IMG/VR virus record: IMGVR_UViG_3300002026_000057
From: a virus
Taxonomy: Duplodnaviria; Heunggongvirae; Uroviricota; Caudoviricetes
Length of the DNA: 64,000 nt
Direction: 5' to 3' (one strand)
Below the pieces are notes generated by a model. It worked only from the letters and a program-made list of their open reading frames with translations, ran no database searches and was not told the origin of the DNA. The first letter of the stretch is position 1. The number at the start of each line of letters is the position of its first letter. Shown piece by piece: positions 2,987 through 58,247 of this stretch. Both the position numbers and the translations under genes were made by a program.

Positions 2987-4753
2987 TACTTCGACCTGAA
3001 TTTCAGTGAAGATTTTAATGAAACTATCTTTTTCAAGCGTGTCAAGAGAAAAGTCATAGTCAACGTCTTCTCTAGTTTCACTAAATTCACCCCCAAGGAC
3101 AGTAATTAGGTCATTGAAAGTATATGCATTTTCCCATTGCTGAGCCAACGCCTTATTTGCAATTTCCGTGATATTGTTTTTACCCGACACCCTAGAAGTT
3201 CCTGCTCCGAAGTTCAAGAGAACAAAGGATTGTTTTTCTCCTTTAGGTAAAAATAATCCAAGAATATTCTGTTTCTGAACCGATTCAACCTTAACCTCTA
3301 AGAAAAGATTATTTGGATCCATCATATATTCTCTGGACATTTTGTCACCCTTACCCACAATGATCTTATATTTGCAAGTATCCAAACCGCTAAATATATT
3401 AATTTGAACAAGGGTTGGGTCTTTTAATCCTTTACCTGCGTAAAGATATTCAACAGCTCCATTTGGGGCATTTGTGATATCACCTGAATACATTAGAGCA
3501 CCATCTCCTTGGTTATAGGATGAATTCCAACCAACGTGTCCGTTTAGGTTAATTCCATGAAGATCGATATCTCGAGCACCCCATTCGTTTTCCCAATACA
3601 TTCCGACGGCCATTTTTTTACCTGAGAATCGTGAACCTGTTGGTATATTACCCACGAACATCTTTTCAGAAGTTGGTAAGGCGTACTCAACGTTCTTAGG
3701 AACAAAGAATTTTTTACCTTCGAAACTAAACCTACTTTTAAGGTAATCAACCAAAAAGGTAAAGTTCTGCTCGTTTACATTACTGGTAGTTTTTTCCTGT
3801 GTCCACGATTTACCATTACGGATTCTGTAAACAAATGAGTCCTGCCCATTCATTCTCGTATAACACCCTGAAATAGCCTTAAATATTGCATATGGGGTTG
3901 CGTTATTCAACCAGTGAACATCAGAATCGGTAAGTAACTGACTCGTTGCAAGGTTAAGTGGATTACTCACCAATGGTTTATGCATAGTCTTTGACAACTT
4001 TGCAATTTTATTGACGGCCTTTGGACACTTACCTTTGAAAGCAAGGAACAATGGTTTGAACCTATTGAAGATTTCAGCGAGTTTTTCAAATCCGAACTGT
4101 TCAAATTGTACACCGGGGTTAAATGTTGAGCTCTTAATAAGTTCAACTGTACCGGGGTTTTTGATTAACAAAGACTTACCTGTTGCACGATAGATAATGT
4201 ATCTGAAAAATTCCATAGTGTCCTGTGGAATAACTCCGTACATATCGGCAATAATTATGACGGCTTCTTTGTTTTTGATACCTTCTTTACCTGTGAATTT
4301 GTACCCAAGTTCATCAGTGAGAATTGATAAAATGTCAATGATGGTGTCTTCTTTCAAAGCTGCACCAGATTTAAGGATACCAAGACATTTTGATATCATT
4401 TCATTCTTACTGTATCCTTTGATAACTTTAAATACAACCTTAACATCGGGCACATTAACCACTTCGTCAGGAATATATACGTCACCCTGAAAATCAGTAC
4501 CATAAGTACTCATATAATGAAGAATTTGTTCAATGAACAATTCCCAACGGGTTGATGTTTTGATTTTCTCCCATGACTTATGGAAGGTCTTATTAAGATC
4601 GTTTCCGGATAATTTTTCCTTCTTATAATATGCAAGGATTTTGTCTTTCGCCCACAAGGCGTTTGGTTCAATTATAAACCCATCTTCAGAAATGAATGGT
4701 TTCTGGTCAGAAGATAAACCGATTACGGCATTGAAGTGTTTTAACGTTTTCAT
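2984..4753 (-). CDS. hypothetical protein (589 aa)
   Basis: Long uninterrupted ORF. No motif I can name. Confidence 0.55.
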   Translation of the reverse strand: MKTLKHFNAVIGLSSDQKPFISEDGFIIEPNALWAKDKILAYYKKEKLSGNDLNKTFHKSWEKIKTSTRWELFIEQILHYMSTYGTDFQGDVYIPDEVVNVPDVKVVFKVIKGYSKNEMISKCLGILKSGAALKEDTIIDILSILTDELGYKFTGKEGIKNKEAVIIIADMYGVIPQDTMEFFRYIIYRATGKSLLIKNPGTVELIKSSTFNPGVQFEQFGFEKLAEIFNRFKPLFLAFKGKCPKAVNKIAKLSKTMHKPLVSNPLNLATSQLLTDSDVHWLNNATPYAIFKAISGCYTRMNGQDSFVYRIRNGKSWTQEKTTSNVNEQNFTFLVDYLKSRFSFEGKKFFVPKNVEYALPTSEKMFVGNIPTGSRFSGKKMAVGMYWENEWGARDIDLHGINLNGHVGWNSSYNQGDGALMYSGDITNAPNGAVEYLYAGKGLKDPTLVQINIFSGLDTCKYKIIVGKGDKMSREYMMDPNNLFLEVKVESVQKQNILGLFLPKGEKQSFVLLNFGAGTSRVSGKNNITEIANKALAQQWENAYTFNDLITVLGGEFSETREDVDYDFSLDTLEKDSFIKIFTEIQVEV

Positions 4754-8780: not shown

Positions 8781-8805
8781 TATAATAGGTATTTAATTTT
8801 TATTG

Positions 8806-21386: not shown

Positions 21387-22196
21387 TTAACCATTGTCCA
21401 AATTATTAATTAGTTCTTTTACTTTATCGATATGTTTATGATCCATCGGTTTCCCACAAGTGTTCAATTTTATGAATGATTCATAAACTGCCCTCTTATC
21501 TGGATTTTCAAGAAATCCATAAGTGATACCGTGGCTTGTGAATGTATGCTTGTCTCTATGAGACATTTGAGAGAAATAAACACCCTTGTATGGGAATCTA
21601 TCTTCATAAAACTCACATAGAGCTGTCAATCTTTGTTTTCCATCAAGTACTTGGTAATATTTACCCGTTGTTTTTTCGTTAAGTTGAATGAAAACGAATT
21701 TCCCTATATCAATATTGTTATATATACTGTCAATGAGATCAACTTTATCATCAATACTCCATACGTGCCCACGTTGATATTCAACATCAAAGTCAACACC
21801 TGCATGGGATGCATAAACCATATGTAATAAAGATTCAACGGGAGAATTTAATAGTCTGATACGGTACTTTTCTTCTTGAGTGAATTGAGTCTCCTTATTC
21901 TTACCGTATTTATAAATTTCATGCCAAGCGTCAACATGAAACTCGTGAGATGCTGGTTTATCCCTGTCCCGTTTAACATTCATTGCTTCGCACACATAAA
22001 AAAGACCTTCTTGGCGAATTTCACGAACATATACTTCTTCAAGTGCTCCAAGGCTAACACGTTCACCAATTTCAAAACTACGGGTTGGATTCAACGGAAT
22101 CATTCCTATTTCTATTGCATGTTCCATCTCCCGTAAACTATATTGGAGATTATGTAGACTTAATTCTTCCGGTGATTTTTTAACAATCTTTTTCAT
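21387..22196 (-). CDS. DUF262-like (ParB/Srx-fold, GmrSD N-terminal-type) domain protein
   Basis: Motif LDGKQRLTAL matches the DUF262 DGQQR signature. Confidence 0.5.
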   Translation of the reverse strand: MKKIVKKSPEELSLHNLQYSLREMEHAIEIGMIPLNPTRSFEIGERVSLGALEEVYVREIRQEGLFYVCEAMNVKRDRDKPASHEFHVDAWHEIYKYGKNKETQFTQEEKYRIRLLNSPVESLLHMVYASHAGVDFDVEYQRGHVWSIDDKVDLIDSIYNNIDIGKFVFIQLNEKTTGKYYQVLDGKQRLTALCEFYEDRFPYKGVYFSQMSHRDKHTFTSHGITYGFLENPDKRAVYESFIKLNTCGKPMDHKHIDKVKELINNLDNG

Positions 22197-42022: not shown

Positions 42023-42112
42023 GACTCTGTGGCAGAGATAGGCGTGATGCACCAGACTTTTAATCTGGGATCCCCATAAAGGTGTACGTGGGTTCGATTC
42101 CCACCGGGGTCA
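42023..42112 (+). tRNA. tRNA-like, 90 nt, anticodon loop CTTTTAA (UUU) with ~19-nt variable region; identity uncertain
   Basis: Acceptor GACTCTG/CGGGGTC (with G-U pairs), T-arm GTGGG-TTCGATT-CCCAC, discriminator A, anticodon stem CCAGA/TCTGG. Confidence 0.4.
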
Positions 42113-42169
42113 CTTGAGAGTAGAGTTTAGGTATTTTCTGTATCTTGTTTGAACTGAAATATCCAAATC

Positions 42170-42238
42170 GCCGACAATCCAGGGAGACGACGGCTCTGTA
42201 AAAGCCTAGCGCGAAGGTTCAAGATCCTTCTGGCGGCA
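42170..42238 (+). tRNA. degenerate tRNA-like element (acceptor GCCGACA/TGGCGGC, loop CTGTAAA, 8-nt T-loop); possible pseudogene
   Basis: 6/7 acceptor pairing, T-stem GAAGG/CCTTC, but no convincing D-arm. Confidence 0.25.
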
Positions 42239-42303
42239 CATAGGTATCGGTTTTAGGGTTTTTTACTACTTTTTTGGTCCAATGTCCCGAAAAAAAGTAG
42301 AAT

Positions 42304-42386
42304 GGAAAGGTGGTCGAGTGGTTAATGGCACCAGACTGTAAATTTGGTCTCTTCGGAGTTCGGGGGTTCGAATCCCTCCCTTTCCA
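42304..42386 (+). tRNA. tRNA-Tyr (GTA), type II
   Basis: Acceptor GGAAAGG/CCTTTCC, 3-bp D-stem, anticodon stem CCAGA/TTTGG, loop CTGTAAA, variable hairpin CTC-TTCG-GAG, T-loop TTCGAAT, discriminator A. Confidence 0.7.
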
Positions 42387-42393
42387 CAACAAT

Positions 42394-42466
42394 GCATCCG
42401 TAGCTCAATTGGCGGAGCTCGTGACTCTTACTCATGAGGTTGGGGGTTCGATTCCCTTCGGATGCA
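42394..42466 (+). tRNA. tRNA-Lys (CTT)
   Basis: Acceptor GCATCCG/CGGATGC, D-arm GCTC-AATTGGCG-GAGC, anticodon loop CTCTTAC, T-loop TTCGATT. Confidence 0.65.
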
Positions 42467-42472
42467 CAAATC

Positions 42473-42555
42473 ACCATCGTAGTAAAGTGGCCAAATACGC
42501 TTCTCTCATAAGGAAGTCCTTTTTAGGTTCGAGGGTTCGAATCCCTCCGATGGTA
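42473..42555 (+). tRNA. tRNA with anticodon CAT (Met or Ile2) carrying a long variable hairpin (CCT-TTTT-AGG)
   Basis: Acceptor ACCATCG/CGATGGT, anticodon stem CTTCT/GGAAG, loop CTCATAA, T-arm GAGGG-TTCGAAT-CCCTC, discriminator A. Confidence 0.55.
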
Positions 42556-42643
42556 CAAAATGGTGATTATCACCATAATAGAAAAAAGTTTTAAAAAACT
42601 TAAAAAAAAGTTTAAAAAAACTTGGTTATTCCAATACGATTAT

Positions 42644-42669
42644 TTATATTTGTACCATATTTATAATAA
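42644..42669 (+). promoter_or_regulatory. promoter copy B: the same TTATATTTGTACCATATTTATAATAA 27-mer
   Basis: Identical to the 41694-41720 element. Confidence 0.5.
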
Positions 42670-42688
42670 AGATTAAACGCTGAAACAA

Positions 42689-42838
42689 ATGAAAAACATA
42701 ATTGCAATAATTTCAAGGACACAAATATCGTCCCCATCAACGACAAGTAGTCGTAATGGAAATGGTATATTCTGTTCAGACTTTACAGGCAGAAATATTG
42801 CAGACACGGGTTCAGGTGGAAAGGTTGTTTTAAGATAA
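42689..42838 (+). CDS. small ORF B (49 aa, MKNIIAIISRTQISSPSTTSSRNGNG...) between promoter copy B and a terminator
   Basis: Hand-translated. Flanked by the promoter at 42644 and the terminator at 42872. Confidence 0.25.
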   Translation: MKNIIAIISRTQISSPSTTSSRNGNGIFCSDFTGRNIADTGSGGKVVLR

Positions 42839-42871
42839 ACTTTTCCGAAACACACAAACTGAACCCGACAT

Positions 42872-42919
42872 CTGAATAGATAGTCGGGTTTTTTGTTCTT
42901 TGACATATTGGTATTTTGA
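42872..42919 (+). terminator. rho-independent terminator CCCGAC-N13-GTCGGG plus T6, followed by GTTCTTTGACATATTGG
   Basis: Hairpin plus T-run. The tail is shared with the terminator at 41887. Confidence 0.6.
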
Positions 42920-42999
42920 TGAAGTGGCTGAGTGGTTGAAAGCGACAGTCTGCAAAACTGTTTACGAAAGTACTCGTGGGTTCGAATCCCACCTTCATC
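42917..42999 (+). tRNA. tRNA with anticodon GCA (Cys identity, U73) but a type-II-like long variable hairpin (TAC-GAAA-GTA)
   Basis: Acceptor GATGAAG/CTTCATC, 3-bp D-stem GCT/AGC, anticodon stem ACAGT/ACTGT, loop CTGCAAA, T-arm GTGGG-TTCGAAT-CCCAC, discriminator T. Confidence 0.55.
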
Positions 43000-43077
43000 T
43001 CCATTTGGAACGTTCTGTCATTGCTATATCGGGACAGAACACCTCCATAGGGTTGCATGGTTTCCTATGGACCACCT

Positions 43078-43166
43078 GGGTGAGTAGCTGAATTGGCTTA
43101 GCGGGAGGCTGTTAACCTCTGATTGAAAATATTGAAATAAAGTGGGTTCGAAGCCCTCCTTGCCCT
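43078..43166 (+). tRNA. tRNA-Asn (GTT)-like with a 21-nt AT-rich insertion at the variable-loop position
   Basis: Acceptor GGGTGAG/CTTGCCC (with G-U pairs), anticodon stem GGAGG/CCTCT, loop CTGTTAA, insert GATTGAAAATATTGAAATAAA, T-loop TTCGAAG. Confidence 0.45.
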
Positions 43167-43229
43167 CAAATTATAGTTTTGTTTAACTATACTTATAGTT
43201 GATTAATAGAGAATATTTTCAACTGATAT

Positions 43230-43303
43230 TGTCTTGTAGTTCAGCCAGGAAGAACGTTCGGCAGATACCCGAAAGGTCGTTGGTTCAAACCCAATCAAGA
43301 CAA
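43230..43303 (+). tRNA. tRNA, probable Ile (GAT), anticodon loop CAGATAC (A at position 33)
   Basis: Acceptor TGTCTTG/CAAGACA, D-arm GTTC-AGCCAGGAA-GAAC, anticodon stem TTCGG/CCGAA, T-arm GTTGG-TTCAAAC-CCAAT. Confidence 0.5.
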
Positions 43304-43373
43304 CGAGAGAGACCCTTTTTTCTGATTTTTTTTAAAGGACACTTCGGTGGAAGCGTAGAAAAAAGTCTGATAC

Positions 43374-43455
43374 TGTGACGTGGATGAGCGGTTTAGTCAC
43401 CAGTCTGATACACTGGGTGCTTAGCACGACGTGAGTTCGAATCTCACCGTCACAA
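43374..43455 (+). tRNA. tRNA-Ile (GAT) with a 14-nt variable hairpin (GTGC-TTA-GCAC)
   Basis: Acceptor TGTGACG/CGTCACA, anticodon stem CCAGT/ACTGG, loop CTGATAC, T-arm GTGAG-TTCGAAT-CTCAC, discriminator A. Confidence 0.55.
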
Positions 43456-43575
43456 CAAAAGGTTAGTAATCTAGACGCCTAACCAGCTGAAAAGATGAAG
43501 TTTCCTTGGCGAAATTGATCCAAACTGGCACCTGTGGTGGGATGAGAAGTGGTGATAAAGTGACCAAAAACTATA

Positions 43576-43663
43576 AGGAAGAGTGTCCGAGTGGCTTATG
43601 GAGGCGGTCTTGAAAACCGTTGTCCCTGCAAGGGGACCGTGGGTTCGAATCCTACCTCTTCCG
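43576..43663 (+). tRNA. tRNA-Ser (TGA), type II
   Basis: Acceptor GGAAGAG/CTCTTCC, loop CTTGAAA, variable hairpin GTCCC-TGCAA-GGGAC, discriminator G. Confidence 0.7.
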
Positions 43664-43735
43664 CAAAAGGGTAGCTGTTTTTTAGAATTTTTTTATCGAA
43701 CTGAGTAAAGGTATTCGGAAACAAAAAATTCGTTT

Positions 43736-43820
43736 GGAGAGGTGGCAGAGTGGTCTAATGCGGCAGTCTTGAAAACTGTTGGGCTTTCGGGCTCCGGGGG
43801 TTCGAATCCCTCCCTCTCCG
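43736..43820 (+). tRNA. tRNA-Ser (TGA), second copy, type II
   Basis: Acceptor GGAGAGG/CCTCTCC, loop CTTGAAA, variable arm GGGCTTTCGGGCTC, discriminator G. Confidence 0.65.
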
Positions 43821-43934
43821 CAACTGAAAACTATTGGATTGTCTAAGTTTTTTAGTGGCGGAAGTTTAAAGGACAATAAACCGCCCCGGAAAGGTATATA
43901 AAACAGTGAACTTGTTCATTGATTCCGGGAATTT

Positions 43935-44023
43935 GGAAGAATGGGTGAGTGGTTTAAACCAGCGGCTTGCTAAGCCGTCGGGCGGGGTAACCCGCCCCAA
44001 GAGTTCGAATCTCTTTTCTTCCG
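43935..44023 (+). tRNA. tRNA-Ser (GCT), type II
   Basis: Acceptor GGAAGAA/TTCTTCC, loop TTGCTAA, variable hairpin CGGGCGGGG-TAA-CCCGCCCC, T-arm AAGAG-TTCGAAT-CTCTT, discriminator G. Confidence 0.7.
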
Positions 44024-44097
44024 CCATATTTAAAGAAATTTCATTAAAAGTCGCCTGTTTCAGAAACCGATGAGTATTTATAAATAAATAAACATTT

Positions 44098-44517
44098 ATG
44101 AATACAAATGAAAAGGGTAATAGAGGATTGGCAAATGTAATATCTGACGTAATTAATAAGGGGTATTTTATATTTTTACCACTTACGGACACAACAAATA
44201 TTGATATTATAATTGCAAATGAAAAAATGGAAATGTTCAGAGCTCAAGTAAAATATAGTTCTGTTAATAAACATGGAGTTATTAAAGCATCTACATCAAA
44301 TGTTGTTGATAGAAAAAGAGTTTCTGTAAATTTTTCGGTTATTGATTTGTGGGCAATTTATTGTCCTGACACAAGTAAAGTATACTATGTACCAAAAAAA
44401 GAATTGGTAAATAAGTCATCTGGAATGGAATTACGTGTTAATAAACCGAAATTGAATAATCCAAACATACATTTTGCAAATGATTATTTGGATATAAAAA
44501 ATGCGTTGATAAAGTAA
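44098..44517 (+). CDS. hypothetical protein (139 aa) embedded in the tRNA array
   Basis: ORF on the same strand as the tRNAs. No motif identified. Confidence 0.45.
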   Translation: MNTNEKGNRGLANVISDVINKGYFIFLPLTDTTNIDIIIANEKMEMFRAQVKYSSVNKHGVIKASTSNVVDRKRVSVNFSVIDLWAIYCPDTSKVYYVPKKELVNKSSGMELRVNKPKLNNPNIHFANDYLDIKNALIK

Positions 44518-44752
44518 TCAGCCAAATTGGATTATCATTAGCTGATTTCACACGTCAAAACAATGGTCATGACATTGTGGAGATGTTAGGGTTCTGAATT
44601 GCATAAGAGGCTCTATTAATGTTCAGCTGGAAAACTTCCCTGTGTTTGTGTATAGGCAGCACAATAAATACGGGGATATTCTGAGAGACATTTTTAAGGT
44701 GGTTGAAATATCATCGGTAGTGTGAGTATAAGGCTCACTTCAGAACCAAATT

Positions 44753-44825
44753 GGTGTCGTAGCTCAGTTGGTAGAGCGCGGGCCTGAAGAGCCCGGCGTC
44801 GGTGGTTCGAATCCACCCGATACCA
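44753..44825 (+). tRNA. tRNA-Phe (GAA)
   Basis: GGTGTCGTAGCTCAGTTGGTAGAGCGCGGGCCTGAAGAGCCCGGCGTCGGTGGTTCGAATCCACCCGATACCA; clean cloverleaf. Confidence 0.8.
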
Positions 44826-44831
44826 CAATAT

Positions 44832-44905
44832 TCTTGTGTAGCTCAGTTGGTTAGAGCGGCGGACTGTTAATCCGTAGGTCGAAGGTTCAAGTCCTTCCTC
44901 AAGAG
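44832..44905 (+). tRNA. tRNA-Asn (GTT), canonical
   Basis: D-arm GCTC-AGTTGGTTA-GAGC, anticodon stem GCGGA/TCCGT, loop CTGTTAA, T-arm GAAGG-TTCAAGT-CCTTC, discriminator G. Confidence 0.7.
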
Positions 44906-44999
44906 CAATACTGGTTTTTGATCCCGCTTTACCGTTAGGATGCTCAGGCTGAACAGAATACAAAGGAGGAATGACAGGTGTGGAGAGACACACAAATAC

Positions 45000-45071
45000 G
45001 GATTGGTAGCTCAGGGGTAGAGCGCTGGCCTGAAGAGCCAGAGGTCGAAGGGTCAACTCCTTCTCATTCCA
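45000..45071 (+). tRNA. tRNA-Phe (GAA)-like second copy with a divergent T-loop (GTCAACT) and an acceptor mismatch
   Basis: D-arm GCTC-AGGGGTA-GAGC, anticodon stem CTGGC/GCCAG, loop CTGAAGA, T-stem GAAGG/CCTTC. Confidence 0.45.
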
Positions 45072-45273
45072 CAAATGTGGGTTGTCCACCAGTAGAGGTG
45101 GGTACGTAAGTCTGTTATACACGGCAGAGTCCACGCCAAATATCGGGGATGATACACTGTTTTATCACAGTGCCCCGTCCAAAAAAGGACAAGTGAATGG
45201 ATCAATCCCTGTTTCCGCAGGGGGAGATTACCGTCTAGAGTACGGACATTTACATCGGAATTGTCCTTTACTT

Positions 45274-45361
45274 GCAGTAGTCGCCTAGTTGATCGATGGC
45301 ACTGGATTTCCAATCCAGTCAGATAAAGTTCACGTCGAGGGTTTGAATCCCTCCTACTGCT
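45274..45361 (+). tRNA. tRNA-Gly (TCC)-like with an 18-nt variable-region insertion
   Basis: Acceptor GCAGTAG/CTACTGC (7/7), 3-bp D-stem GCC/GGC, anticodon stem CTGGA/TCCAG, loop TTTCCAA, T-arm GAGGG-TTTGAAT-CCCTC, discriminator T. Confidence 0.5.
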
Positions 45362-45720
45362 CTTTTAAGATATCTGGAAATACAGGTTCGAATCCTGTAC
45401 CGCTCCTTCGGGGGAGGTTCGTCTAAGGGATAGGACGCCGGAGCACACGGTCTCCTTTGCTTAGGAATATCGAAGCGGCTACATCTCAATATTAGCTATA
45501 AAAGATGTAGAATGGGTGAAAGTCCCAAGGAGATCAGACTTTCGTGGTCGTGGGTTCGAGCCCCACCGCTACCGTCGGTAGTGTAAGTCTCAGTTGGTAG
45601 AGCTGCGAACCATAAATGTTATTTCTTAGGAACACCAATCACGATGGGTTCGAAACCGTAGTGAAGGTACATTAGAAAGTGTTCTAGCGGGAATAACAAT
45701 GCCTCGGATAATAATAGTAC
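45362..45720 (+). other. cluster of tRNA-like fragments: isolated T-arms, hairpins, and a 3' half (T-arm plus CGCTACC-G) directly abutting a 5' half (GGTAGTG-TA-D-arm) with mutually complementary acceptor strands
   Basis: T-arms ACAGG-TTCGAAT-CCTGT (45381-45398) and GTGGG-TTCGAGC-CCCAC (45556-45572). 3' acceptor CGCTACC at 45573-45579, then TC, then GGTAGTG plus a D-arm-like TCTC-AGTTGGTA-GAGC. GCGAA at 45613 can pair with TTCGT at 45547. Confidence 0.3.
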
Positions 45721-45736
45721 TTAAAAATTCCGGGGT

Positions 45737-45810
45737 CGCGATGTAGCTCAGTTTGGTTAGAGCGCCGCTGCACAAGGCGGAGGTCAGAGGTTCGAATCCT
45801 CTCATCGCAA
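45737..45810 (+). tRNA. tRNA-like with C1.A72 mismatch (initiator-like) and a non-7-nt anticodon loop (CCGC-TGCACAAG-GCGG)
   Basis: Acceptor CGCGATG/CATCGCA, D-arm GCTC-AGTTTGGTTA-GAGC, T-arm AGAGG-TTCGAAT-CCTCT, discriminator A. Anticodon loop is 8 nt (or 6 with a U.G pair). Confidence 0.4.
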
Positions 45811-45815
45811 CTATA

Positions 45816-45900
45816 TGCGAGGTCGACTGGAGTTGGTTCCAGCGGGGGCTCATAACCCCTAACCCTTACGGGAACACAGGTTCGAATCCTGTCCTCGCTA
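45816..45900 (+). tRNA. tRNA with anticodon CAT and a 15-nt variable hairpin (CCC-TTAC-GGG)
   Basis: Anticodon stem GGGGG/CCCCT, loop CTCATAA, D-arm CTGG-AGTTGGTT-CCAG, T-arm ACAGG-TTCGAAT-CCTGT, acceptor GCGAGG/CCTCGC. Confidence 0.5.
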
Positions 45901-45922
45901 CTAATATTTTTTTTAAAATACA

Positions 45923-46009
45923 TGCGGGGTGGTGTAATTGGTTAACACGCTGGGCTCATAACCCAGAGACATCTAATGCTTCGTGTCAGTTCGAATCTGA
46001 CCCCCGCTA
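45923..46009 (+). tRNA. tRNA with anticodon CAT and an 18-nt variable-region insertion; U1.U72 mismatch
   Basis: Acceptor TGCGGGG/CCCCGCT, D-arm GTGT-AATTGGTTA-ACAC, anticodon stem CTGGG/CCCAG, loop CTCATAA, T-arm GTCAG-TTCGAAT-CTGAC. Confidence 0.5.
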
Positions 46010-46014
46010 CAATT

Positions 46015-46087
46015 GCCTATTTAGCTCAGTTGGTGGAGCGTATCCTTGGTATGGATAAGGTCATGGGTTCGAATCCCGTACTAGGCT
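46015..46087 (+). tRNA. tRNA-Thr (GGT)
   Basis: Acceptor GCCTATT/ACTAGGC, D-arm GCTC-AGTTGGTG-GAGC, anticodon stem TATCC/GGATA, loop TTGGTAT, T-arm ATGGG-TTCGAAT-CCCGT. Confidence 0.65.
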
Positions 46088-46131
46088 CATTCTCGTTTTT
46101 CATATATTTATGGATATAAAAAATTAAAACT

Positions 46132-46374
46132 ATGTTCAAAAAATTATGGGAAAATATTAAGGCATGGTGGATTAAAACCGCCGAACCTTGGTTAAAGAAA
46201 AGTTGGATGCAAATTGTAAATATCATTGTAATGTTCATTGCATATGGTACAACCGATTCACTTCCATGGGTACAAGCAATTGTAGGATTGTGGTTGTTCC
46301 TTCTTTTGGGATATTATATTTTCTGGAAACTCTTTGGAGCGGAAAAAATGTTCAAAAAGGATATCACAACGTAA
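46132..46374 (+). CDS. small 2-TM membrane protein (80 aa) inside the tRNA array
   Basis: Trp-rich hydrophobic helices. Followed by a strong terminator. Confidence 0.45.
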   Translation: MFKKLWENIKAWWIKTAEPWLKKSWMQIVNIIVMFIAYGTTDSLPWVQAIVGLWLFLLLGYYIFWKLFGAEKMFKKDITT

Positions 46375-46398
46375 AACAATTATTTTTACAGTATGGGT

Positions 46399-46430
46399 AA
46401 ACCCCAATTATACTGTAATTGGGGTTTTTT
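46399..46430 (+). terminator. rho-independent terminator ACCCCAATTA-TACTG-TAATTGGGGT plus T6
   Basis: 10-bp stem plus T-run right after the 46132..46374 ORF. Confidence 0.7.
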
Positions 46431-46433
46431 ATT

Positions 46434-46518
46434 GCCGATGTGGCATCAGCGGTCGACTGCGCCTGACTTGTAATCAGGATCTTAAACGGCAACGGGGGTT
46501 CGAATCCCTCCATCGGCT
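46434..46518 (+). tRNA. tRNA-Thr (TGT) with ~15-nt variable-region expansion
   Basis: Acceptor GCCGATG/CATCGGC, 3-bp D-stem, anticodon stem CCTGA/TCAGG, loop CTTGTAA, T-arm GGGGG-TTCGAAT-CCCTC, discriminator T. Confidence 0.5.
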
Positions 46519-46592
46519 CCATCCCTTCGGGGATCCCCGGCTTTTGGTGCTGGTAACACCTTGTAACCGATAACAATTAAAAACTACCAAAT

Positions 46593-46745: not shown

Positions 46746-46974
46746 CCAAGTATTCTTCATAACTCAGAGGATTCATCGCGCCAGAAATGGTGAGGAACTT
46801 CAGGACATCACTGCCAAATGCGGGAGGGTTAAAACCCGTTATCACCGCAGAGGATGCAACCCAAAAAAGCTTAGACGGCAAGCAGGTCTATAATAGTAAG
46901 GTTGGGGCTTAGACAAATGATGAAACAAAACAGAAACCTGGGTACGCTCAAGTTATGATTTATTTTGATTAATA

Positions 46975-47048: not shown

Positions 47049-47478
47049 CAAATAAATAATATTTAATATTGTAATAAAGGTCTTGGATCCTTCAAAGATA
47101 ATATTGAATATCTCACGAATGCTATAAAATATTTAAAATAAAAATATCTCATACAACCATATCCCGAAACTATTTATATATGTAGTTTCATAAAATTCTA
47201 AATTAATAAAAATGAAAGATTGTGAACCGTATAAACAGAAACAAAACAGCAACATTGTTCCTTTTCTTAGGAACATTTTTCAATCCTTTAGGATACGATG
47301 CTCTCCTAAAATTCTTAATCGATACGACAGGCAGTTATTGGTTTTCAATTTCCATTTTCTACCTATTGTCAGTAGTTTGCTTTATCTCTTACTTTGTTTT
47401 AGCTAAAGTAAACCCATTAAAACTCTTTACAAGAAAAAGAGATTTATCTTAGGATATTAATTTCTTTTTCTTTATATT

Positions 47479-47913: not shown

Positions 47914-48294
47914 ATGGTAAGAATTTTAAATAAAAAAGACAACAAGCAATTAAGTGAATTAATAAAAATTGCACTTTTTGAAAACGTTTTTATTGTAAAA
48001 AAGAAAAATCATCATTTTTTTGGCTATTTTATCGATGATAAATTAGTTGGTGTTGTTGGATATTTTACAATGAAAAAATATAAAACCATTGGTTTTATTA
48101 ACGCATTTGTTTTACCTGAATACAGAAAATCTGGTATTTATAAAAAACTTACTGAAGAAAGGTTTAATTTTTGTGTTGAAAATTATAAAGGATTTAAAAT
48201 TTTTATATCCGTAAATAGTAAAAGTAGACCACAAATAGAAAAATTAGGTTTTAAATTAATTGAAGAACAATATAGAATGTGTTTAAGTATTTAA
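47914..48294 (+). CDS. GNAT-family N-acetyltransferase
   Basis: Motif A region VGVVGYF...INAFVLPEYRKSGIYKKL. 126 aa. Confidence 0.6.
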   Translation: MVRILNKKDNKQLSELIKIALFENVFIVKKKNHHFFGYFIDDKLVGVVGYFTMKKYKTIGFINAFVLPEYRKSGIYKKLTEERFNFCVENYKGFKIFISVNSKSRPQIEKLGFKLIEEQYRMCLSI

Positions 48295-48307
48295 TAATAC
48301 CCTTGTA

Positions 48308-48365
48308 ATTCAACGGATAGAAAGTTTTAGATAGAGGTTCGATTACTGTTGGGTGCTGAAGTAGA
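48308..48365 (+). repeat. tRNA-3'-half-like repeat, copy 2 (TTCAACGGATAGAAAGTTTTAGATAGAGGTTCGATTACTGTTGGGTG)
   Basis: Shares ATTCAACGGATAGAA and TTTTAGATA.AGGTTCGATT.CTGTTGGG with copy 1. Confidence 0.5.
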
Positions 48366-48376
48366 ATAATACCAAT

Positions 48377-49126
48377 ATGAAATATAAAACAATTGTTATT
48401 TCCGATGTCCATCTTGGAAGAAAAGATTCTAAAGTGGATGAAGTTGTGGATTTTCTTAAAACAAATTCTTGTGATAATCTTTTCTTAAATGGTGACATCA
48501 TTGACGGATGGCATCTTCAGCGTGGAGGTAAATGGACCAAAACGCATACAAAGTTCATTAAGAAAATAATGAAACTGGTTTCACACAATAAAACAAAAGT
48601 AGTATACATTAGGGGTAATCATGATGATTTTCTTGAAAATATTATGCCGTTTTCAATTGGCGATAATTTTGAGATAAAAACTGATTACGTTTACAATAGT
48701 TTGGGTAAGAAATTTTTAATACTACATGGTGATATTTTTGATGACATAACATCGAAAATCACTTGGTTATCAAAATTAGGCGATGTTGGGTATGAAGTTT
48801 TATTGTGGATTAATAGGAGGAACAATAATAAAAGATTAAAAAGGGGATTACCTTATAAATCTTTTTCTCAGGACATTAAAAAAAAGGTGAAATTTCTTGT
48901 TAGCTTCCTGTCAAAATTTGAAGAGAAAGCCGTCAAATTCGCTGAACATAAAAAATGTGATGGAGTTATTTGTGGACACATACACACCCCGGAAAACAAA
49001 ATAATAAATGGAATGATTTATATGAATTCCGGAGATTGGGTTGAAACCAAAAGTGCTTTGGTTGAGGATTTTGATGGTAATTGGGAAATTATTTATTCAG
49101 AAGATAAAATCATTAAACAATCATAA
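48377..49126 (+). CDS. calcineurin-like metallophosphoesterase
   Basis: Motifs ISDVHLG, GDIIDGWH, GNHDDF, LHGDIFD and GHIHTP. Confidence 0.7.
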   Translation: MKYKTIVISDVHLGRKDSKVDEVVDFLKTNSCDNLFLNGDIIDGWHLQRGGKWTKTHTKFIKKIMKLVSHNKTKVVYIRGNHDDFLENIMPFSIGDNFEIKTDYVYNSLGKKFLILHGDIFDDITSKITWLSKLGDVGYEVLLWINRRNNNKRLKRGLPYKSFSQDIKKKVKFLVSFLSKFEEKAVKFAEHKKCDGVICGHIHTPENKIINGMIYMNSGDWVETKSALVEDFDGNWEIIYSEDKIIKQS

Positions 49127-49882: not shown

Positions 49883-50548
49883 TTAATAAAATTTTCTTAA
49901 AACCGAAACAACATCATAAGCGTCTTCAAGGGCATCATGGGTAACATTTCCACTGATGCCAGCCCGGGACTTACAAATGTTTAGTGATGGTAATTCTTCA
50001 TCAGTTTTCCAATCAAGGAATAACATTGCCGGATCCATTATTCTCTGTTTGGCGATGATGAGTTTTTGCCACCATGGAAGTTTCTTCAAGAAAACATTAT
50101 CAAATGTTCCGAAGTTTTTACCGGCAACATTAATTAAAATCGGCTTAGTTTTACCGTTGATTAACGGATATGTTACACCATCAATCACTCTGATTGTTTT
50201 ATCCATTTGGTCAATAAGACTATATCCTGGACCGTTTTTCCATAAAAAATCGAAAAATGCTGATGCAACCTCATCCTCATCATAGAAATCTATAATTTGT
50301 GATAGCTCAGCACGTTTATCTTTATCACCATCAAGATATTCACCCATTAATCGAACGATTTTTTCATTCATGGTTAGTGCTCTTGGAGACCCAGAAATTT
50401 GTCTCTGAAGAATAATTGCGTGAAATTTTGGAATCTCGGAGAATGATAATTTTTTCGTGGTGTCTTCGATGACCGCCCCGATAGATAATACTTGGTTGTT
50501 TTCAGGATCTAATCCCGAAGTTTCAATGTCAATTGATACGTATTTCAT
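49883..50548 (-). CDS. DEDDh 3'-5' exonuclease (DnaQ/epsilon-like)
   Basis: Exo I VSIDIETSGLDP, Exo III HDALEDAYDV. Confidence 0.7.
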   Translation of the reverse strand: MKYVSIDIETSGLDPENNQVLSIGAVIEDTTKKLSFSEIPKFHAIILQRQISGSPRALTMNEKIVRLMGEYLDGDKDKRAELSQIIDFYDEDEVASAFFDFLWKNGPGYSLIDQMDKTIRVIDGVTYPLINGKTKPILINVAGKNFGTFDNVFLKKLPWWQKLIIAKQRIMDPAMLFLDWKTDEELPSLNICKSRAGISGNVTHDALEDAYDVVSVLRKFY

Positions 50549-57185: not shown

Positions 57186-58247
57186 TTAATTATCATCTCC
57201 TTCACTATCATTTATAGTGAATGGTTTAGAATATTTTGGGTATATTTTTGCCCAAATCATCTGACTAATATCTTTCCCATCTGCCAAATTGAAAAATACC
57301 CCACGGAGACTTTTATCATATGTAAAAATTTTCTCAGCAAGTTCTTTTCTGGTTTTATAACCCTGACACTCAATTTCAGAAGTGTAAGTGTATTTCATCT
57401 TACCTTCAATAGACTGAAACAATTTAGTCATAGTATCAATTTGGTCATGTACCCAAGAGTCGAACTCATCAGGAACGTGTTCCAATAATTGATCTATTGG
57501 TAAACCATCTTTAAGATATGTCCAAATATCTCTACTTGAAATCTTAGTGACGATAGAATGTAAACGACAATATTCTTCGCCTTTTATTTTCATTCTGAAC
57601 CCAGACTTGAATCGAATAACATACCCTTCAGCATCTGGTTTAATGCTCGATTTAATTGTTTCAAAATCGGTCACTCCGTCATATTTTTGTACAACGGTAC
57701 AACCTAAATCTTCAAATCCAACGTTATGTACTGGTAATTCAATTCCCGAAACTATTTCTATGCGTCCTAAAAGAACTAAACCTTCAAAATCATATTTACA
57801 TACAATTCTACCTTCTTTGAAAATAATTTCAAAAATGTAGGTATAATCCTTTGCAAATTTTTCATATTCGAAAGCTTTAAGCAATTGTTTAGCTCGTTCT
57901 GCATACATAGAAGTGAAGGATCCTCGTGAAGCGAAAATCCATTCATCTTCGTACCAGAATAACAATCCCAACTGACCATCCATTTTTTCGAATAAATCGA
58001 ATGGTTCATCAGGAATTGGATAGTTTACGTTTAACAATTGTTCCCAATTGAAAAACTTGTTGAAGCACCGTGAAACAATATCACCTTTTGAGTTTGTTAC
58101 CAAACCACGGCACATCAAAGTGATTTCATCCCAATGGTCTTCCCATTGAGTCTGACGAGAATAGTTCCAAATAGTCAAATCCTTGTATGGGTGTGACTGT
58201 TTGATTAACCAACCTTCGTCATAATATTTGTTTAATACTTCTAACAT
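57186..58247 (-). CDS. ATP-dependent RNA/DNA ligase (nucleotidyltransferase superfamily, Rnl-like)
   Basis: Motif I FEKMDGQLG (KxDG), motif V-like EGYVIRFKSGFRMKIKGEEY. Confidence 0.6.
   Translation of the reverse strand: MLEVLNKYYDEGWLIKQSHPYKDLTIWNYSRQTQWEDHWDEITLMCRGLVTNSKGDIVSRCFNKFFNWEQLLNVNYPIPDEPFDLFEKMDGQLGLLFWYEDEWIFASRGSFTSMYAERAKQLLKAFEYEKFAKDYTYIFEIIFKEGRIVCKYDFEGLVLLGRIEIVSGIELPVHNVGFEDLGCTVVQKYDGVTDFETIKSSIKPDAEGYVIRFKSGFRMKIKGEEYCRLHSIVTKISSRDIWTYLKDGLPIDQLLEHVPDEFDSWVHDQIDTMTKLFQSIEGKMKYTYTSEIECQGYKTRKELAEKIFTYDKSLRGVFFNLADGKDISQMIWAKIYPKYSKPFTINDSEGDDN

What the first reader, a model, noticed from the sequence alone, without database searches (positions are those of the whole stretch)
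45362..45720. Abutting tRNA halves with mutually complementary acceptor strands (possible permuted/split tRNA or tandem-duplication remnant) plus orphan T-arms
A well-formed T-arm (GTGGG-TTCGAGC-CCCAC) followed by a 3' acceptor strand CGCTACC and discriminator G ends at 45580. Two bases later a 5' acceptor strand GGTAGTG starts, followed by TA and a D-arm-like TCTC-AGTTGGTA-GAGC and an anticodon-stem 5' strand GCGAA. The two acceptor strands pair 7/7, so the junction itself is a perfect hairpin. The partner strand for GCGAA (TTCGT) is found upstream at 45547, just before the T-arm, not downstream. That 3'-half-then-5'-half order is what a circularly permuted tRNA gene looks like. Neither half has a normal partner on its proper side. 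An additional orphan T-arm with acceptor-like tail (ACAGG-TTCGAAT-CCTGT-ACCGCTC) sits at 45381-45405. Permuted tRNA genes are known from a few algae and archaea but not from bacteriophages.
Basis: partly seen in the sequence, partly recalled or inferred. Interest (0 to 1): 0.65.

Follow-up and report, generated by a model that had tools for sequence, protein, structure and literature searches.

The report
Phage tRNA mimics with closed acceptor stems
The gap in this phage's tRNA gene array holds two small RNA genes built like tRNAs turned inside out (acceptor stem closed by a loop, anticodon loop missing), the architecture of bacterial Y RNA-like "YrlA" tRNA mimics; relatives in other phages keep the fold through compensating mutations, so these are working RNAs, not a split tRNA gene or junk.

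Summary
The sequence features are real, although the internal coordinates for unit B are about 6 nt off. The region holds two in-register "permuted" tRNA-like units, not one.

- Unit A is 45373-45442.
- Unit B is 45541-45609. It sits on a 10/12 bp basal stem.
- A decayed T-arm fragment lies at 45644-45659.

ARAGORN and Rfam call no tRNA in this gap.

The decisive evidence is comparative. A syntenic array (L026) keeps unit A directly after tRNA-Gly(tcc), with changes on both sides of paired positions. Six other phage contigs carry the same T-arm/D-arm body with a closed 7-bp acceptor of unrelated sequence. Across 12 units, 94% of cells are paired and all 7 acceptor pairs change on both sides (0/500 shuffles reach this). 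True tandem tRNAs show only 1-4 of 7 cross-pairs.

In L057 such units lie about 420 nt upstream of a phage Ro60/Rsr gene on the same strand. L065 units carry the Rsr-binding motif and score up to 57.8 bits on Rfam YrlA.

The window has no Rsr, no exact motif, and only 28 bits on YrlA. I therefore class it as a new variant of the YrlA kind. It is not a permuted tRNA gene and not debris.

The parts
45274..45362 (+). tRNA-Gly(tcc), the upstream neighbour. Its 3' end lies 10 nt before unit A.
   Evidence: ARAGORN; Rfam tRNA 54.3 bits. The same tRNA and the same spacer precede the orthologous unit in L026.
45373..45442 (+). Unit A, a permuted tRNA-like module. In order: TCTGG (positions 39-43), AAAT, T-arm 45382-45398, closed acceptor hairpin 45399-45418 (ACCGCTC-C-UUCG-G-GGGAGGT), TC, Glu-type D-arm 45421-45436, G, CCGGA (positions 27-31).
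   Evidence: Sequence. Called as a tRNA when un-permuted. Permuted-tRNA CM R1 gives 33.9 bits. Orthologue in L026 and six paralogous-body units in IMG/VR with covarying stems.
45479..45510 (+). Linker hairpin CTACATCT-(16 nt, AT-rich)-AGATGTAG between units A and B.
   Evidence: Sequence and fold. L026 has an analogous 6-bp hairpin with an AT-rich loop at the same place. Function unknown.
45507..45514 (+). GUAGAAUG, one mismatch from the GNCGAAN0-1G motif of YrlA RNAs. It lies 35 nt before the T-arm of unit B.
   Evidence: Sequence. L065 unit 1 has GACGAAUG at the same 35-nt distance. The motif definition comes from PMC4201824.
45514..45533 (+). 5' strand of the basal stem of unit B (GGU..., GUCCCAAGGAGA).
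   Evidence: Pairs 10/12 with 45622-45633, plus GGU/ACC.
45541..45609 (+). Unit B, a permuted tRNA-like module. In order: TTCGT, GGTC, T-arm 45550-45566, closed acceptor hairpin 45567-45583 (CGCTACC-G-UC-GGTAGTG), D-arm 45589-45602, GCGAA.
   Evidence: Sequence. Rfam YrlA 28.2 bits, full-length. R1 gives 45.0 bits. Called as a tRNA when un-permuted. Same body type as the YrlA-like units of L065, L057 and L030.
45622..45636 (+). 3' strand of the basal stem of unit B (UUUCUUAGGAAC ACC).
   Evidence: The 13-mer TTTCTTAGGAACA recurs at 47263 in a terminator-like hairpin.
45640..45663 (+). Fragment C, a decayed T-arm-like hairpin (CACGATGG-GTTCGAAA-CCGTAGTG). It resembles the T-arm of tRNA-Thr(ggt) with a 1-nt deletion.
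   Evidence: Alignment. No partner strands were found. Probably debris.
45737..45811 (+). Downstream neighbour tRNA with an irregular anticodon loop.
   Evidence: ARAGORN; Rfam 54.1 bits.

Best explanation
The 374-nt gap between tRNA-Gly(tcc) and the next tRNA encodes two non-decoding tRNA mimics of the YrlA (Y RNA-like) architecture.

**Shown**
- Each unit has, in this order: the 3' strand of an anticodon-like stem, a short variable loop, a canonical T-arm, a 7-bp acceptor-like helix closed by a short loop (UUCG in A, G-UC in B), a D-arm, and the 5' strand of the anticodon-like stem.
- The elbow nucleotides are intact: G18G19, T54-T55-C56, G53-C61, and the R15:Y48 pair.
- The helices are maintained by compensating substitutions in related phages.

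**Inferred**
- The units are transcribed with the tRNA array and released by the same processing enzymes.
- They fold into the tRNA L-shape, so they are seen by tRNA-binding proteins.
- Unit B carries a long imperfect basal stem. Through it, they dock onto a Ro60/Rsr ring protein, encoded elsewhere in the phage genome or by the host, as YrlA RNAs do.
- Because the closed acceptor helix is exactly 7 bp, RNase P may cut it, as it does in Mycobacterium smegmatis YrlA. That would give a two-piece tRNA-like RNA.
For: **Anatomy**
- Sequence and coordinates.
- ARAGORN calls the un-permuted constructs as tRNAs; controls.

**Orthology**
- L026 is a syntenic array (neighbouring 80-aa protein 80% identical). 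It has the same unit 10 nt after tRNA-Gly(tcc).
- Between the window and L026, pair 40-30 changes C-G to U-A, 7-66 changes U-A to G.U, 4-69 changes A.G to C-G, and 13-22 changes U.G to U-A.
- In L026 the acceptor is closed by a GUAA-capped helix instead of UUCG.

**Family**
- IMG/VR scans found the same T/D body with a closed acceptor in L030, L031, L045, L057, L060 and L065.
- In those orphan units, 5-7 of 7 acceptor pairs form across 3-8 nt loops. In 29 true tandem-tRNA junctions matched by the same pattern, only 1-4 of 7 form (one case has 6).

**Covariation over 12 units**
- 94.3% of cells are paired, against 70.3 +/- 2.3% in shuffles (0/500 reach the observed value). Slid controls give 35-52%.
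- All 7 acceptor pairs change on both sides.
- The anticodon-like stem pairs 5/5 in five A-type units with four different sequences.

**Link to Y RNAs**
- In L057, an A-type unit and a B-type unit lie about 420-650 nt upstream of a 550-aa Ro60/Rsr gene on the same strand (TROVE 8.8e-44, vWA_Ro60 4e-59).
- Two further phage Rsr loci (L088, L089) have closed 7/7 units upstream.
- L065 units carry GACGAAUG and GGCGAAUG and score 57.8 and 31.8 bits on Rfam YrlA. L030 scores 48.9 bits.
- A- and B-type bodies occur as pairs in L065, L057 and L030, as they do in the window.

**Literature**
- YrlA-related sequences were reported in 22 phages, and a 7-bp stem is cut by RNase P (PMC4201824).
Against: - **No Rsr in the window.** There is no TROVE/Rsr gene in the 64-kb window. 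I ran Pfam on 37 ORFs, including all of 400 aa or more. tblastn of the L057 Rsr against all six frames found nothing.
- **No exact motif.** GNCGAAN0-1G is absent. Unit B has GUAGAAUG, one mismatch. Unit A has no room for a 5' strand.
- **Rfam does not discriminate.** The YrlA score for unit B (28.2 bits, gathering score 69) equals the score of an ordinary tRNA-Phe/tRNA-Asn junction (28.6 bits). Unit A gets no YrlA hit at all. My permuted-tRNA CM also scores real tandem junctions as high (50.3 and 41.5 bits, against 45.0 and 33.9).
- **Unit B is weaker than unit A.** It has no orthologue in L026 and has two extra bases in its D-arm region.
- **Folding energies are unremarkable** (z = -0.9 and -1.7). 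RNAfold prefers a competing 16-bp hairpin over unit A's D-arm.
- **The array does contain real debris.** Examples are fragment C, a pseudo-tRNA-Arg at 48299-48355 and a pseudo-tRNA at 42170-42238.
- **No expression data.**
Confidence: 0.68

Rival explanations
1. Neutral debris. Each unit would be the junction of two tandemly duplicated tRNA genes whose outer halves were deleted. Complementarity would then be inherited, not selected.
For: - Tandem paralogues are common in this array. The Gly/Gly and ???/Met junctions show 6/7 cross-pairing, and in-silico crosses of Ser/Ser and Met/Met halves are called as tRNAs.
- Other pseudo-tRNAs and fragment C exist.
- The 3' part of unit A resembles tRNA-Met 45816 (26/30), and unit B shares 20 nt with tRNA-Gly(gcc).
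- Unit B is absent from L026.
- The strain variant L001 gives no information: there are 0 substitutions in the region, where about 1.4 would be expected.
Against: - It needs four deletion end-points, all at anticodon loops.
- The T-loops, D-loops and all 21 pairs are intact in both units, whereas fragment C is visibly decayed.
- A C(UUCG)G tetraloop sits exactly at the acceptor end.
- The orthologue in L026 and six other units keep the helices with changes on both sides of the pairs.
- Homologous units sit next to Rsr.
Confidence: 0.12
2. A true circularly permuted tRNA gene. The transcript ends would be joined (for example by the phage T4 Rnl1-type RNA ligase) to form an anticodon loop. RNase P, RNase Z and CCA addition would then open the acceptor, giving a decoding tRNA.
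For: - The order and register are those of a permuted tRNA.
- The 7-bp acceptor is a good RNase P substrate.
- The phage encodes an Rnl1-family RNA ligase (57186-58247, 68 bits) and a metallophosphoesterase next to the array.
- An RNase P RNA-like element lies at 46759-46956.
Against: - No 7-nt loop with U33 and R37 can be assembled from the bases flanking positions 31 and 39 in either unit (sequence).
- There is no bulge-helix-bulge motif, and no splicing endonuclease is known in bacteria.
- In relatives the anticodon-like stem continues into long basal stems (L065, L057, L030), not into a loop.
- Relatives carry the Rsr-binding motif.
Confidence: 0.04
3. An Rsr-independent tRNA decoy or processing signal. 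The units would mimic the tRNA elbow and acceptor to soak up host tRNA-targeting defence enzymes, or to direct RNase P/Z cuts in the array transcript, without any Ro60 partner.
For: - No Rsr in 64 kb.
- Unit A (window and L026) abuts a tRNA and lacks an Rsr-binding strand.
- The same body also occurs in normal order with the anticodon arm replaced by CCG-UUCG-CGG (L037) or absent (L034). This suggests selection for an anticodon-less tRNA shape as such.
- Phage tRNAs are known to counter tRNA-targeting defences (PMC10264068 and PMC11555353, by title and abstract).
Against: - Rsr is adjacent in L057, L088 and L089, and the motif is present in L065.
- No specific defence enzyme can be named from the data.
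Confidence: 0.16

Closest known systems
YrlA, Y RNA-like A (Rfam RF02553; Chen et al. 2014, PMC4201824; structure 10.1101/312249)
   Same: - Order V/variable loop, then T-arm, closed acceptor-like stem-loop, D-arm, on an extended anticodon-like/basal stem.
- tRNA tertiary nucleotides are kept.
- Encoded next to tRNAs.
- Often two RNAs in tandem.
- Present in phages.
- Relatives of these units lie beside Rsr (L057) and carry GNCGAAUG (L065).
   Different: - In the window there is no Rsr within 64 kb, no exact GNCGAA motif, and the score is far below the Rfam gathering threshold.
- Unit A has a Glu-type D-arm (GTCT..GGAC) instead of the conserved YrlA CUC/GAG D-stem. It abuts a tRNA, so it has no 5' Rsr-binding strand.
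- The acceptor helix is exactly 7 bp (6 bp in Salmonella YrlA).
Mycobacterium smegmatis YrlA
   Same: It has a 7-bp closed acceptor stem. That RNA is cut by RNase P in the loop and receives CCA (PMC4201824). The same outcome is plausible for unit B and for the L030, L057, L088 and L089 units.
   Different: Cleavage was not tested here. The loops here are only 3-4 nt.
Circularly permuted tRNA genes (Cyanidioschyzon merolae, Thermofilum)
   Same: The 3' half is encoded before the 5' half, the acceptor is initially closed, and the anticodon stem is formed by the transcript ends.
   Different: There is no reconstructable anticodon loop and no BHB motif. The organism is bacterial/phage, without the splicing endonuclease.
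Two-piece (permuted) tmRNA
   Same: The T-arm and 3' acceptor strand are encoded upstream of the 5' acceptor strand. Maturation is by RNase P.
   Different: ARAGORN finds no tmRNA. There is no tag reading frame and no G3.U70. A full D-arm is present.
tRNA gene fragments and pseudogenes in prokaryotes (PMC9897764)
   Same: Partial tRNA sequences that tRNA finders do not call. Fragment C and the pseudo-tRNAs of this array are of this kind.
   Different: Units A and B are matched 3'/5' pairs with conserved, covarying helices.

Membership tests
YrlA (Y RNA-like, RF02553) | tRNA-like domain in the order T-arm, closed acceptor-like stem-loop, D-arm, with tRNA elbow nucleotides | tested here: met
   Covariation over 12 units.
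YrlA (Y RNA-like, RF02553) | GNCGAAN0-1G motif near the 5' end (putative Rsr contact) | tested here: not met
   Unit B has GUAGAAUG at 45507-45514 (one mismatch). Unit A has none. The motif is present in relatives: L065 (GACGAAUG, GGCGAAUG) and L057 unit 1 (GCCGAAG).
YrlA (Y RNA-like, RF02553) | Encoded within about 4 kb of a Ro60/Rsr (TROVE) gene on the same strand | tested here: not met
   No TROVE in 37 window ORFs. tblastn of a phage Rsr against the window found nothing. The feature is met for related units in L057, L088 and L089.
YrlA (Y RNA-like, RF02553) | Score at or above the Rfam gathering threshold (69 bits) | tested here: not met
   Unit B scores 28.2 bits and unit A has no hit. 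An ordinary tRNA junction scores 28.6 bits. Rsr-adjacent phage units also score only about 32 bits.
YrlA (Y RNA-like, RF02553) | Binding to Rsr; modification by TruB and DusA | not testable with these tools
   Needs immunoprecipitation and modification mapping.
Circularly permuted tRNA gene | 3' half upstream of the 5' half on one strand, and together they form a cloverleaf | tested here: met
Circularly permuted tRNA gene | Transcript ends can be joined into a 7-nt anticodon loop (U33, R37); BHB motif for the splicing endonuclease | tested here: not met
   The flanks are GCGAA|CCAUAAA / CAGACU|UUCGU for unit B and CCGGA|GCACACG / AAGAUA|UCUGG for unit A. Neither gives a canonical loop or a BHB. 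Relatives continue into long stems.
Circularly permuted tRNA gene | Mature, CCA-ended decoding tRNA detected | not testable with these tools
   Needs tRNA-seq or circular RNA-seq.
Neutral tRNA gene fragment / pseudogene | No selective maintenance of pairing between orthologues; decay of the conserved loops | tested here: not met
   Pairing is maintained with changes on both sides. The loops are intact in units A and B, and decayed only in fragment C.
Two-piece tmRNA | tmRNA-like acceptor (G3.U70), tag reading frame, detection by ARAGORN/Rfam | tested here: not met
   Only a 6.7-bit T-arm match.

The most novel reading that the evidence does not exclude
The closed 7-bp acceptor helices would be opened by RNase P, possibly helped by the RNase P RNA-like element in the same array. 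The units would then receive CCA and act as charged or chargeable two-piece tRNA-like adaptors. Alternatively, the phage Rnl1-type ligase would circularise them into unconventional tRNAs. Either way, the phage would make functional tRNA-like molecules from permuted genes, something not known in bacteria or their viruses.
Probability: 0.06. Interest if true: 0.85.

Novelty: new variant of a known kind. Interest (0 to 1): 0.5.

Why it matters
Y RNA-like tRNA mimics are known mainly as partners of Ro60/Rsr, encoded beside that gene. What their tRNA-like half does, and how they arose, is still open.

In this work they appear as regular residents of the tRNA arrays of large uncultivated phages.
- They occur in at least two body types that travel as pairs.
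- They are mostly invisible to the Rfam model.
- In this window they occur without an Rsr gene in 64 kb.

The same T-arm/D-arm body is found in four forms: ordinary or suppressor tRNAs, normal-order tRNA-like RNAs that lack an anticodon arm, and permuted closed-acceptor units. This natural series could test the proposal that Y RNAs evolved from dimeric tRNA transcripts.

It also gives annotators a concrete rule. A gap in a phage tRNA array with a T-arm followed within 3-20 nt by a complementary acceptor strand and a D-arm is probably a tRNA mimic. It is probably not a broken or split tRNA.

Tried and rejected
**Searches that gave nothing**
- The Rfam YrlA hit cannot serve as proof. The model scores true tRNA-tRNA junctions equally, and Chen et al. 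warn of this.
- My own covariance model of in-silico permuted tRNAs (R1) recovers units A and B. It does not separate them from real tandem junctions.
- Near relatives were not found in INPHARED by DNA.
- IMG/VR gave nothing with the exact 21-mer of unit B, and nothing with the 465-aa flanking protein.
- A degenerate T-loop...D-loop pattern for unit B found only an ordinary tandem junction.
- Contigs encoding homologues of the 465-aa protein carry no tRNA arrays.
- Relatives found through the 139-aa and 249-aa proteins (L013-L024) have arrays but no closed-acceptor units.
- The strain variant L001 is identical across the region and so uninformative.
- The last two contig look-ups (P0076, P0086) landed next to portal genes, not arrays.

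**Readings considered and rejected**
- Alternative parse as normal-order tRNAs with large inserts (5' half of A + 3' half of B; 5' half of B + fragment C): only 4/7 and 4/5 pairs, or none. This was read by hand from the sequence.
- tRNA-His-like identity (G-1:C73) for unit A: not conserved in the other A-type units.
- attP-type 3' tRNA fragment: no integrase was found among the Pfam-scanned ORFs, and the 5' halves would be left unexplained.
- The whalefall-1 hit (19.7 bits) is just the UUCG hairpin.

Full report
**Setting.** Window 41.9-47.9 kb is a plus-strand array of 26 tRNA genes (ARAGORN). Rfam reports 25 of them at gathering score. Many of them carry long extra arms.
- The phage has no near relative in GenBank phages.
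- Its SF1 helicase is closest to those of Crassvirales-like gut phages, at about 30% identity.
- A motif repeated in the array, TTATATTTGTACC, resembles the Bacteroidota -7 promoter box. That resemblance is from my own knowledge and is only a lead.
- The finding lies in a 374-nt stretch (45363-45736) where neither ARAGORN nor Rfam calls a tRNA, even at E <= 10.

**Observation.** The internal coordinates given for the second unit are about 6 nt too high.

*Unit B*, in order:
- TTCGT, 45541-45545
- GGTC
- T-arm GTGGG-TTCGAGC-CCCAC, 45550-45566
- CGCTACC, 45567-45573
- G73, then UC
- GGTAGTG, 45577-45583, which pairs 7/7 with CGCTACC (one G.U)
- a D-arm, 45589-45602, with one extra base and one bulged U
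- GCGAA, 45605-45609, which pairs 5/5 with TTCGT

- TCTGG, 45373-45377
- AAAT
- ACAGG-TTCGAAT-CCTGT
- ACCGCTC-C73-UUCG-G(-1)-GGGAGGT, which is 6/7 pairs plus one extra pair, capped by a C(UUCG)G tetraloop
- TC
- a perfect Glu-type D-arm, GTCT-AAGGGATA-GGAC
- G, then CCGGA, which pairs 5/5 with TCTGG

Both units are in exact tRNA register. Both keep G18G19, the T-loop, G53-C61 and an R15:Y48 pair (G:C in B, A:U in A).

A third piece, 45644-45659, is a decayed copy of the tRNA-Thr(ggt) T-arm.

**Is it more than chance?**
- I rejoined each unit in normal order with an artificial anticodon loop. ARAGORN calls both as tRNAs, A up to 110% and B up to 105% of its default threshold.
- Random pairings of halves from the 25 real tRNAs pass in 8.5% (default), 3.3% (105%) and 1.5% (110%) of 600 cases. 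Most of those are isoacceptor pairs.
- A scan for a T-arm followed by a closed 7/7 helix found only unit B in the window. In about 330 kb of related loci it found two chance hits without D-arms.

**Tests that do not discriminate.**
- Rfam's YrlA model matches unit B full-length at 28.2 bits (E = 4e-4 in the local search). It matches the junction of the real tRNA-Phe and tRNA-Asn genes equally well, at 28.6 bits. Chen et al. describe exactly this false-positive class (PMC4201824).
- A covariance model I built from 58 in-silico permuted phage tRNAs scores B at 45.0 and A at 33.9 bits. Real tandem junctions score 50.3, 41.5, 36.7 and 36.6 bits.
- Tandem paralogues with 6/7 cross-complementary acceptor strands exist in this array, as do pseudo-tRNAs.
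- On the window alone, therefore, a remnant of tandem duplicates could not be excluded.

**Comparative evidence.**

*A syntenic array.* The 80-aa membrane protein encoded 0.5 kb downstream has many homologues. One of them (80% identity) lies on a 19.9-kb contig, L026. Its tRNA array is syntenic with the window. Its order is Cys, Asn, Asn, Ile, Ser, Ser, Phe, Phe, Gly(tcc), an unannotated gap, tRNA, Met, ORF80, Thr, Thr, then Met, Arg, Arg.

Ten nucleotides after tRNA-Gly(tcc), L026 has the orthologue of unit A: TTCGG-AAAC-[same T-arm]-TCTGTCC-T-[GUAA-capped extra helix]-GGGCGGG-TC-GTCT-TTTGGATA-AGAC-A-CCGAA. Relative to the window:
- pair 40-30 is U-A instead of C-G
- pair 7-66 is G.U instead of U-A
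- the 4-69 mismatch becomes C-G
- pair 13-22 becomes U-A
- a different stable tetraloop closes the acceptor

Unit B and fragment C are absent from L026.

*More family members.* Two IMG/VR pattern scans based on the conserved T-arm and D-arm gave a clean split.
- Where ARAGORN annotates tRNAs on both sides, the 3' acceptor strand of the first and the 5' strand of the second pair at only 1-4 of 7 positions. One of 29 cases reaches 6.
- Where neither side is annotated, six further contigs (L030, L031, L045, L057, L060, L065) have 5-7 of 7 pairs across loops of 3-8 nt. L057 again uses UUCG.

*B-type partners.* Several of these loci also hold a second unit with a GCTC-AGTTGGTA-GAGC-type D-arm, like unit B. 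Rfam scores these as YrlA: 57.8 bits (L065), 48.9 (L030) and 32.8 (L057). Within one genome the two body types share their flanking basal-stem sequences (L065, L030).

*Covariation.* On an alignment of 12 units, 94.3% of cells are standard pairs, against 70.3 +/- 2.3% in shuffles (0/500 reach the observed value). Slid controls give 35-52%. All seven acceptor pairs change on both sides. In that alignment unit B is misaligned by one column, which counts against the structure. The anticodon-like stem pairs 5/5 in five A-type units with four different sequences.

**Link to Y RNAs.**
- In L057, the B-type and A-type units lie about 650 and 420 nt upstream of a 550-aa ORF on the same strand. That ORF is a Ro60/Rsr orthologue (TROVE 8.8e-44, vWA_Ro60 4.2e-59).
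- Of five further phage Rsr loci, two (L088, L089) have closed 7/7 T-AS-D units upstream. Four of the five have tRNAs or a tmRNA next to Rsr.
- The Rsr-adjacent units of L089 score only about 32 bits on Rfam YrlA. The Rfam threshold is therefore not informative for these phages.
- The L065 units carry GACGAAUG and GGCGAAUG, which fit the GNCGAAN0-1G motif. They also have 7-bp terminal stems.
- Unit B has GUAGAAUG (one mismatch) at the same 35-nt distance from its T-arm. It also has a 10/12-bp basal stem, 45522-45533 with 45622-45633, extended by GGU/ACC.
[quoted passage not shown] It proposes that they probably derive from dimeric tRNA transcripts. It reports YrlA-related sequences in 22 phages, and shows that the 7-bp-stem YrlA of M. 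smegmatis is cut by RNase P and receives CCA (PMC4201824, 10.1101/312249).

**What argues against simple membership.**
- The window has no Rsr. I ran Pfam on 37 ORFs, including every ORF of 400 aa or more and all ORFs flanking the array. tblastn of the L057 Rsr against all frames found nothing.
- The motif is not exact, and the Rfam threshold is not reached.
- Unit A, in both the window and L026, abuts a tRNA and has no 5' basal strand.
- RNAfold prefers a competing hairpin, 45423-45460, over unit A's D-arm.

I therefore describe the units as working like YrlA, and as a new variant of that kind, not as members of RF02553.

**Mechanism.**

*Shown:*
- two conserved, covarying, closed-acceptor tRNA-like folds encoded in the tRNA array
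- relatives next to Rsr

*Inferred:*
- co-transcription with the tRNAs, and release by RNase P/Z acting on the neighbouring tRNAs
- an L-shaped fold recognised by tRNA-binding proteins
- docking to an Rsr ring through the basal stem (unit B)
- possible RNase P opening of the 7-bp helix

The phage also encodes a T4 Rnl1-family RNA ligase (57186-58247, 68 bits), a metallophosphoesterase beside the array, and an RNase T-like exonuclease. This echoes the rsr-yrlBA-rtcBA RNA-repair context in Salmonella (PMC7790460, from its abstract). That is a lead, not a test.

**Rivals.**
- *Neutral debris* is now unlikely for unit A and less likely for unit B.
- *A true permuted tRNA* fails because no anticodon loop can be assembled, and because relatives continue into long stems.
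- *An Rsr-independent decoy* remains possible. Normal-order relatives of the same body favour it: in these the anticodon arm is replaced by CCG-UUCG-CGG (L037) or missing (L034).

**Verdict.** This is a new variant of a known kind, and of moderate interest.

Noticed in passing
window 46759-46956 (+): A 198-nt element between tRNA-Gly(tcc) and tRNA-Met matches the archaeal RNase P RNA model end to end (31.6-39.8 bits, E about 1e-7 to 7e-9, gathering score 84). It has GAGGAA..UC and ACAGAA blocks and a closing P1-like helix, but the specificity domain is missing. This may be a phage-encoded minimal RNase P RNA. It was not seen in the syntenic L026, and I found no report of phage RNase P RNAs in the paper library.
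   Followed up: partly
window 8805-8877 (-): tRNA with anticodon UUA (would read the UAA stop codon), 66.5 bits on Rfam tRNA. This may indicate stop-codon reassignment in part of this phage. L036 has a suppressor(tta) built on the same T/D body as unit A.
   Followed up: no
window 42023-46521 (several): Many tRNAs that normally have short variable loops (Lys, Met, Cys, Asn, Ile, Gly, Thr) are 83-92 nt long, with long extra arms. The tRNA at 45816-45901 has a 5-6-bp D-stem and is matched by the tRNA-Sec model rather than tRNA. The tRNA at 45737-45811 has an irregular anticodon loop.
   Followed up: no
window 48299-48355 and 42170-42238: Pseudo-tRNAs. The first is a copy of tRNA-Arg(cct) with its anticodon arm deleted and its T-stem mutated. 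The second is a weak tRNA-like sequence (23.4 bits). So the array also contains genuine debris.
   Followed up: partly
window 41691, 42640, 44164, 47468 (+): The motif TT(T/A)TATATTTGTACC is repeated four times in the array, twice within 73-nt repeats. It resembles the Bacteroidota -7 promoter box TAnnTTTG, which suggests several promoters and a Bacteroidota host.
   Followed up: no
window 57186-58247 (-), 48377-49126 (+), 49883-50548 (-), 44098-44517 (+), 47914-48294 (+): RNA-related genes around the array: a T4 Rnl1-family RNA ligase, a calcineurin-like phosphoesterase, an RNase T-like exonuclease, a PD-(D/E)XK (PDDEXK_5) nuclease embedded in the array and conserved in arrays of related phages, and a small GNAT acetyltransferase. 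The syntenic L026 has an HD + AAA_33 (Pnkp-like) gene.
   Followed up: partly
window 11880-17304 (-): Cell-like genes in a phage context: a PAS-domain protein, an ABC transporter ATPase and permease, and a substrate-binding protein fused to an OmpA domain. Also a Band-7/SPFH protein (1852-2706) and a GmrSD-like protein (21387-22196). These may be auxiliary genes or a sign of chimeric or host DNA.
   Followed up: no
L037 (9865-9887, -), L034 (1020-1042, +), L032 (12873-12945, -), L033 (12867-12940, -): The T-arm/Glu-type D-arm body of unit A also occurs in normal gene order. In L037 the anticodon arm is replaced by CCG-UUCG-CGG. In L034 there is no anticodon arm at all. L032 has an 8-nt anticodon loop (gtga). 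L033 has A33.
   Followed up: partly
L057, minus strand, about 3500-3900: Between the A-type unit and the Rsr gene lie two further repeated, structured units of about 90 nt (GGGCCG..GGTTTCGGTTATCG..CCCTTTGTCCGA). They may be additional Rsr-associated RNAs (YrlB-like).
   Followed up: no
L026 1999-2066 and 1993/2143/2322 (+): A third type of orphan closed-acceptor unit (ATAGG-TTCGAAT-CCTAT, TTTTCGC-TTCT-GCGAAAA, 7/7 Watson-Crick; R1 40.8 bits). Also a motif AGTTACTTCGT repeated three times, which resembles the sequence just upstream of unit B's T-arm (GACTTTCGTGG).
   Followed up: partly
L001 1651-1980 compared with window 46520 onward: A strain variant from run SRR931349 is 99.6% identical over 1650 nt. 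It then carries a completely different set of array elements, which shows rapid cassette-like turnover of the array.
   Followed up: partly
L002 286-335 and 513-560: An unrelated phage array contains short acceptor-plus-T-arm minihelix-like elements that lack D and anticodon arms (e.g. GCTAGTG...ACGG-TTCGAGT-CCGT-T-GGCTAGC). This is another kind of tRNA-like filler between tRNA genes.
   Followed up: no
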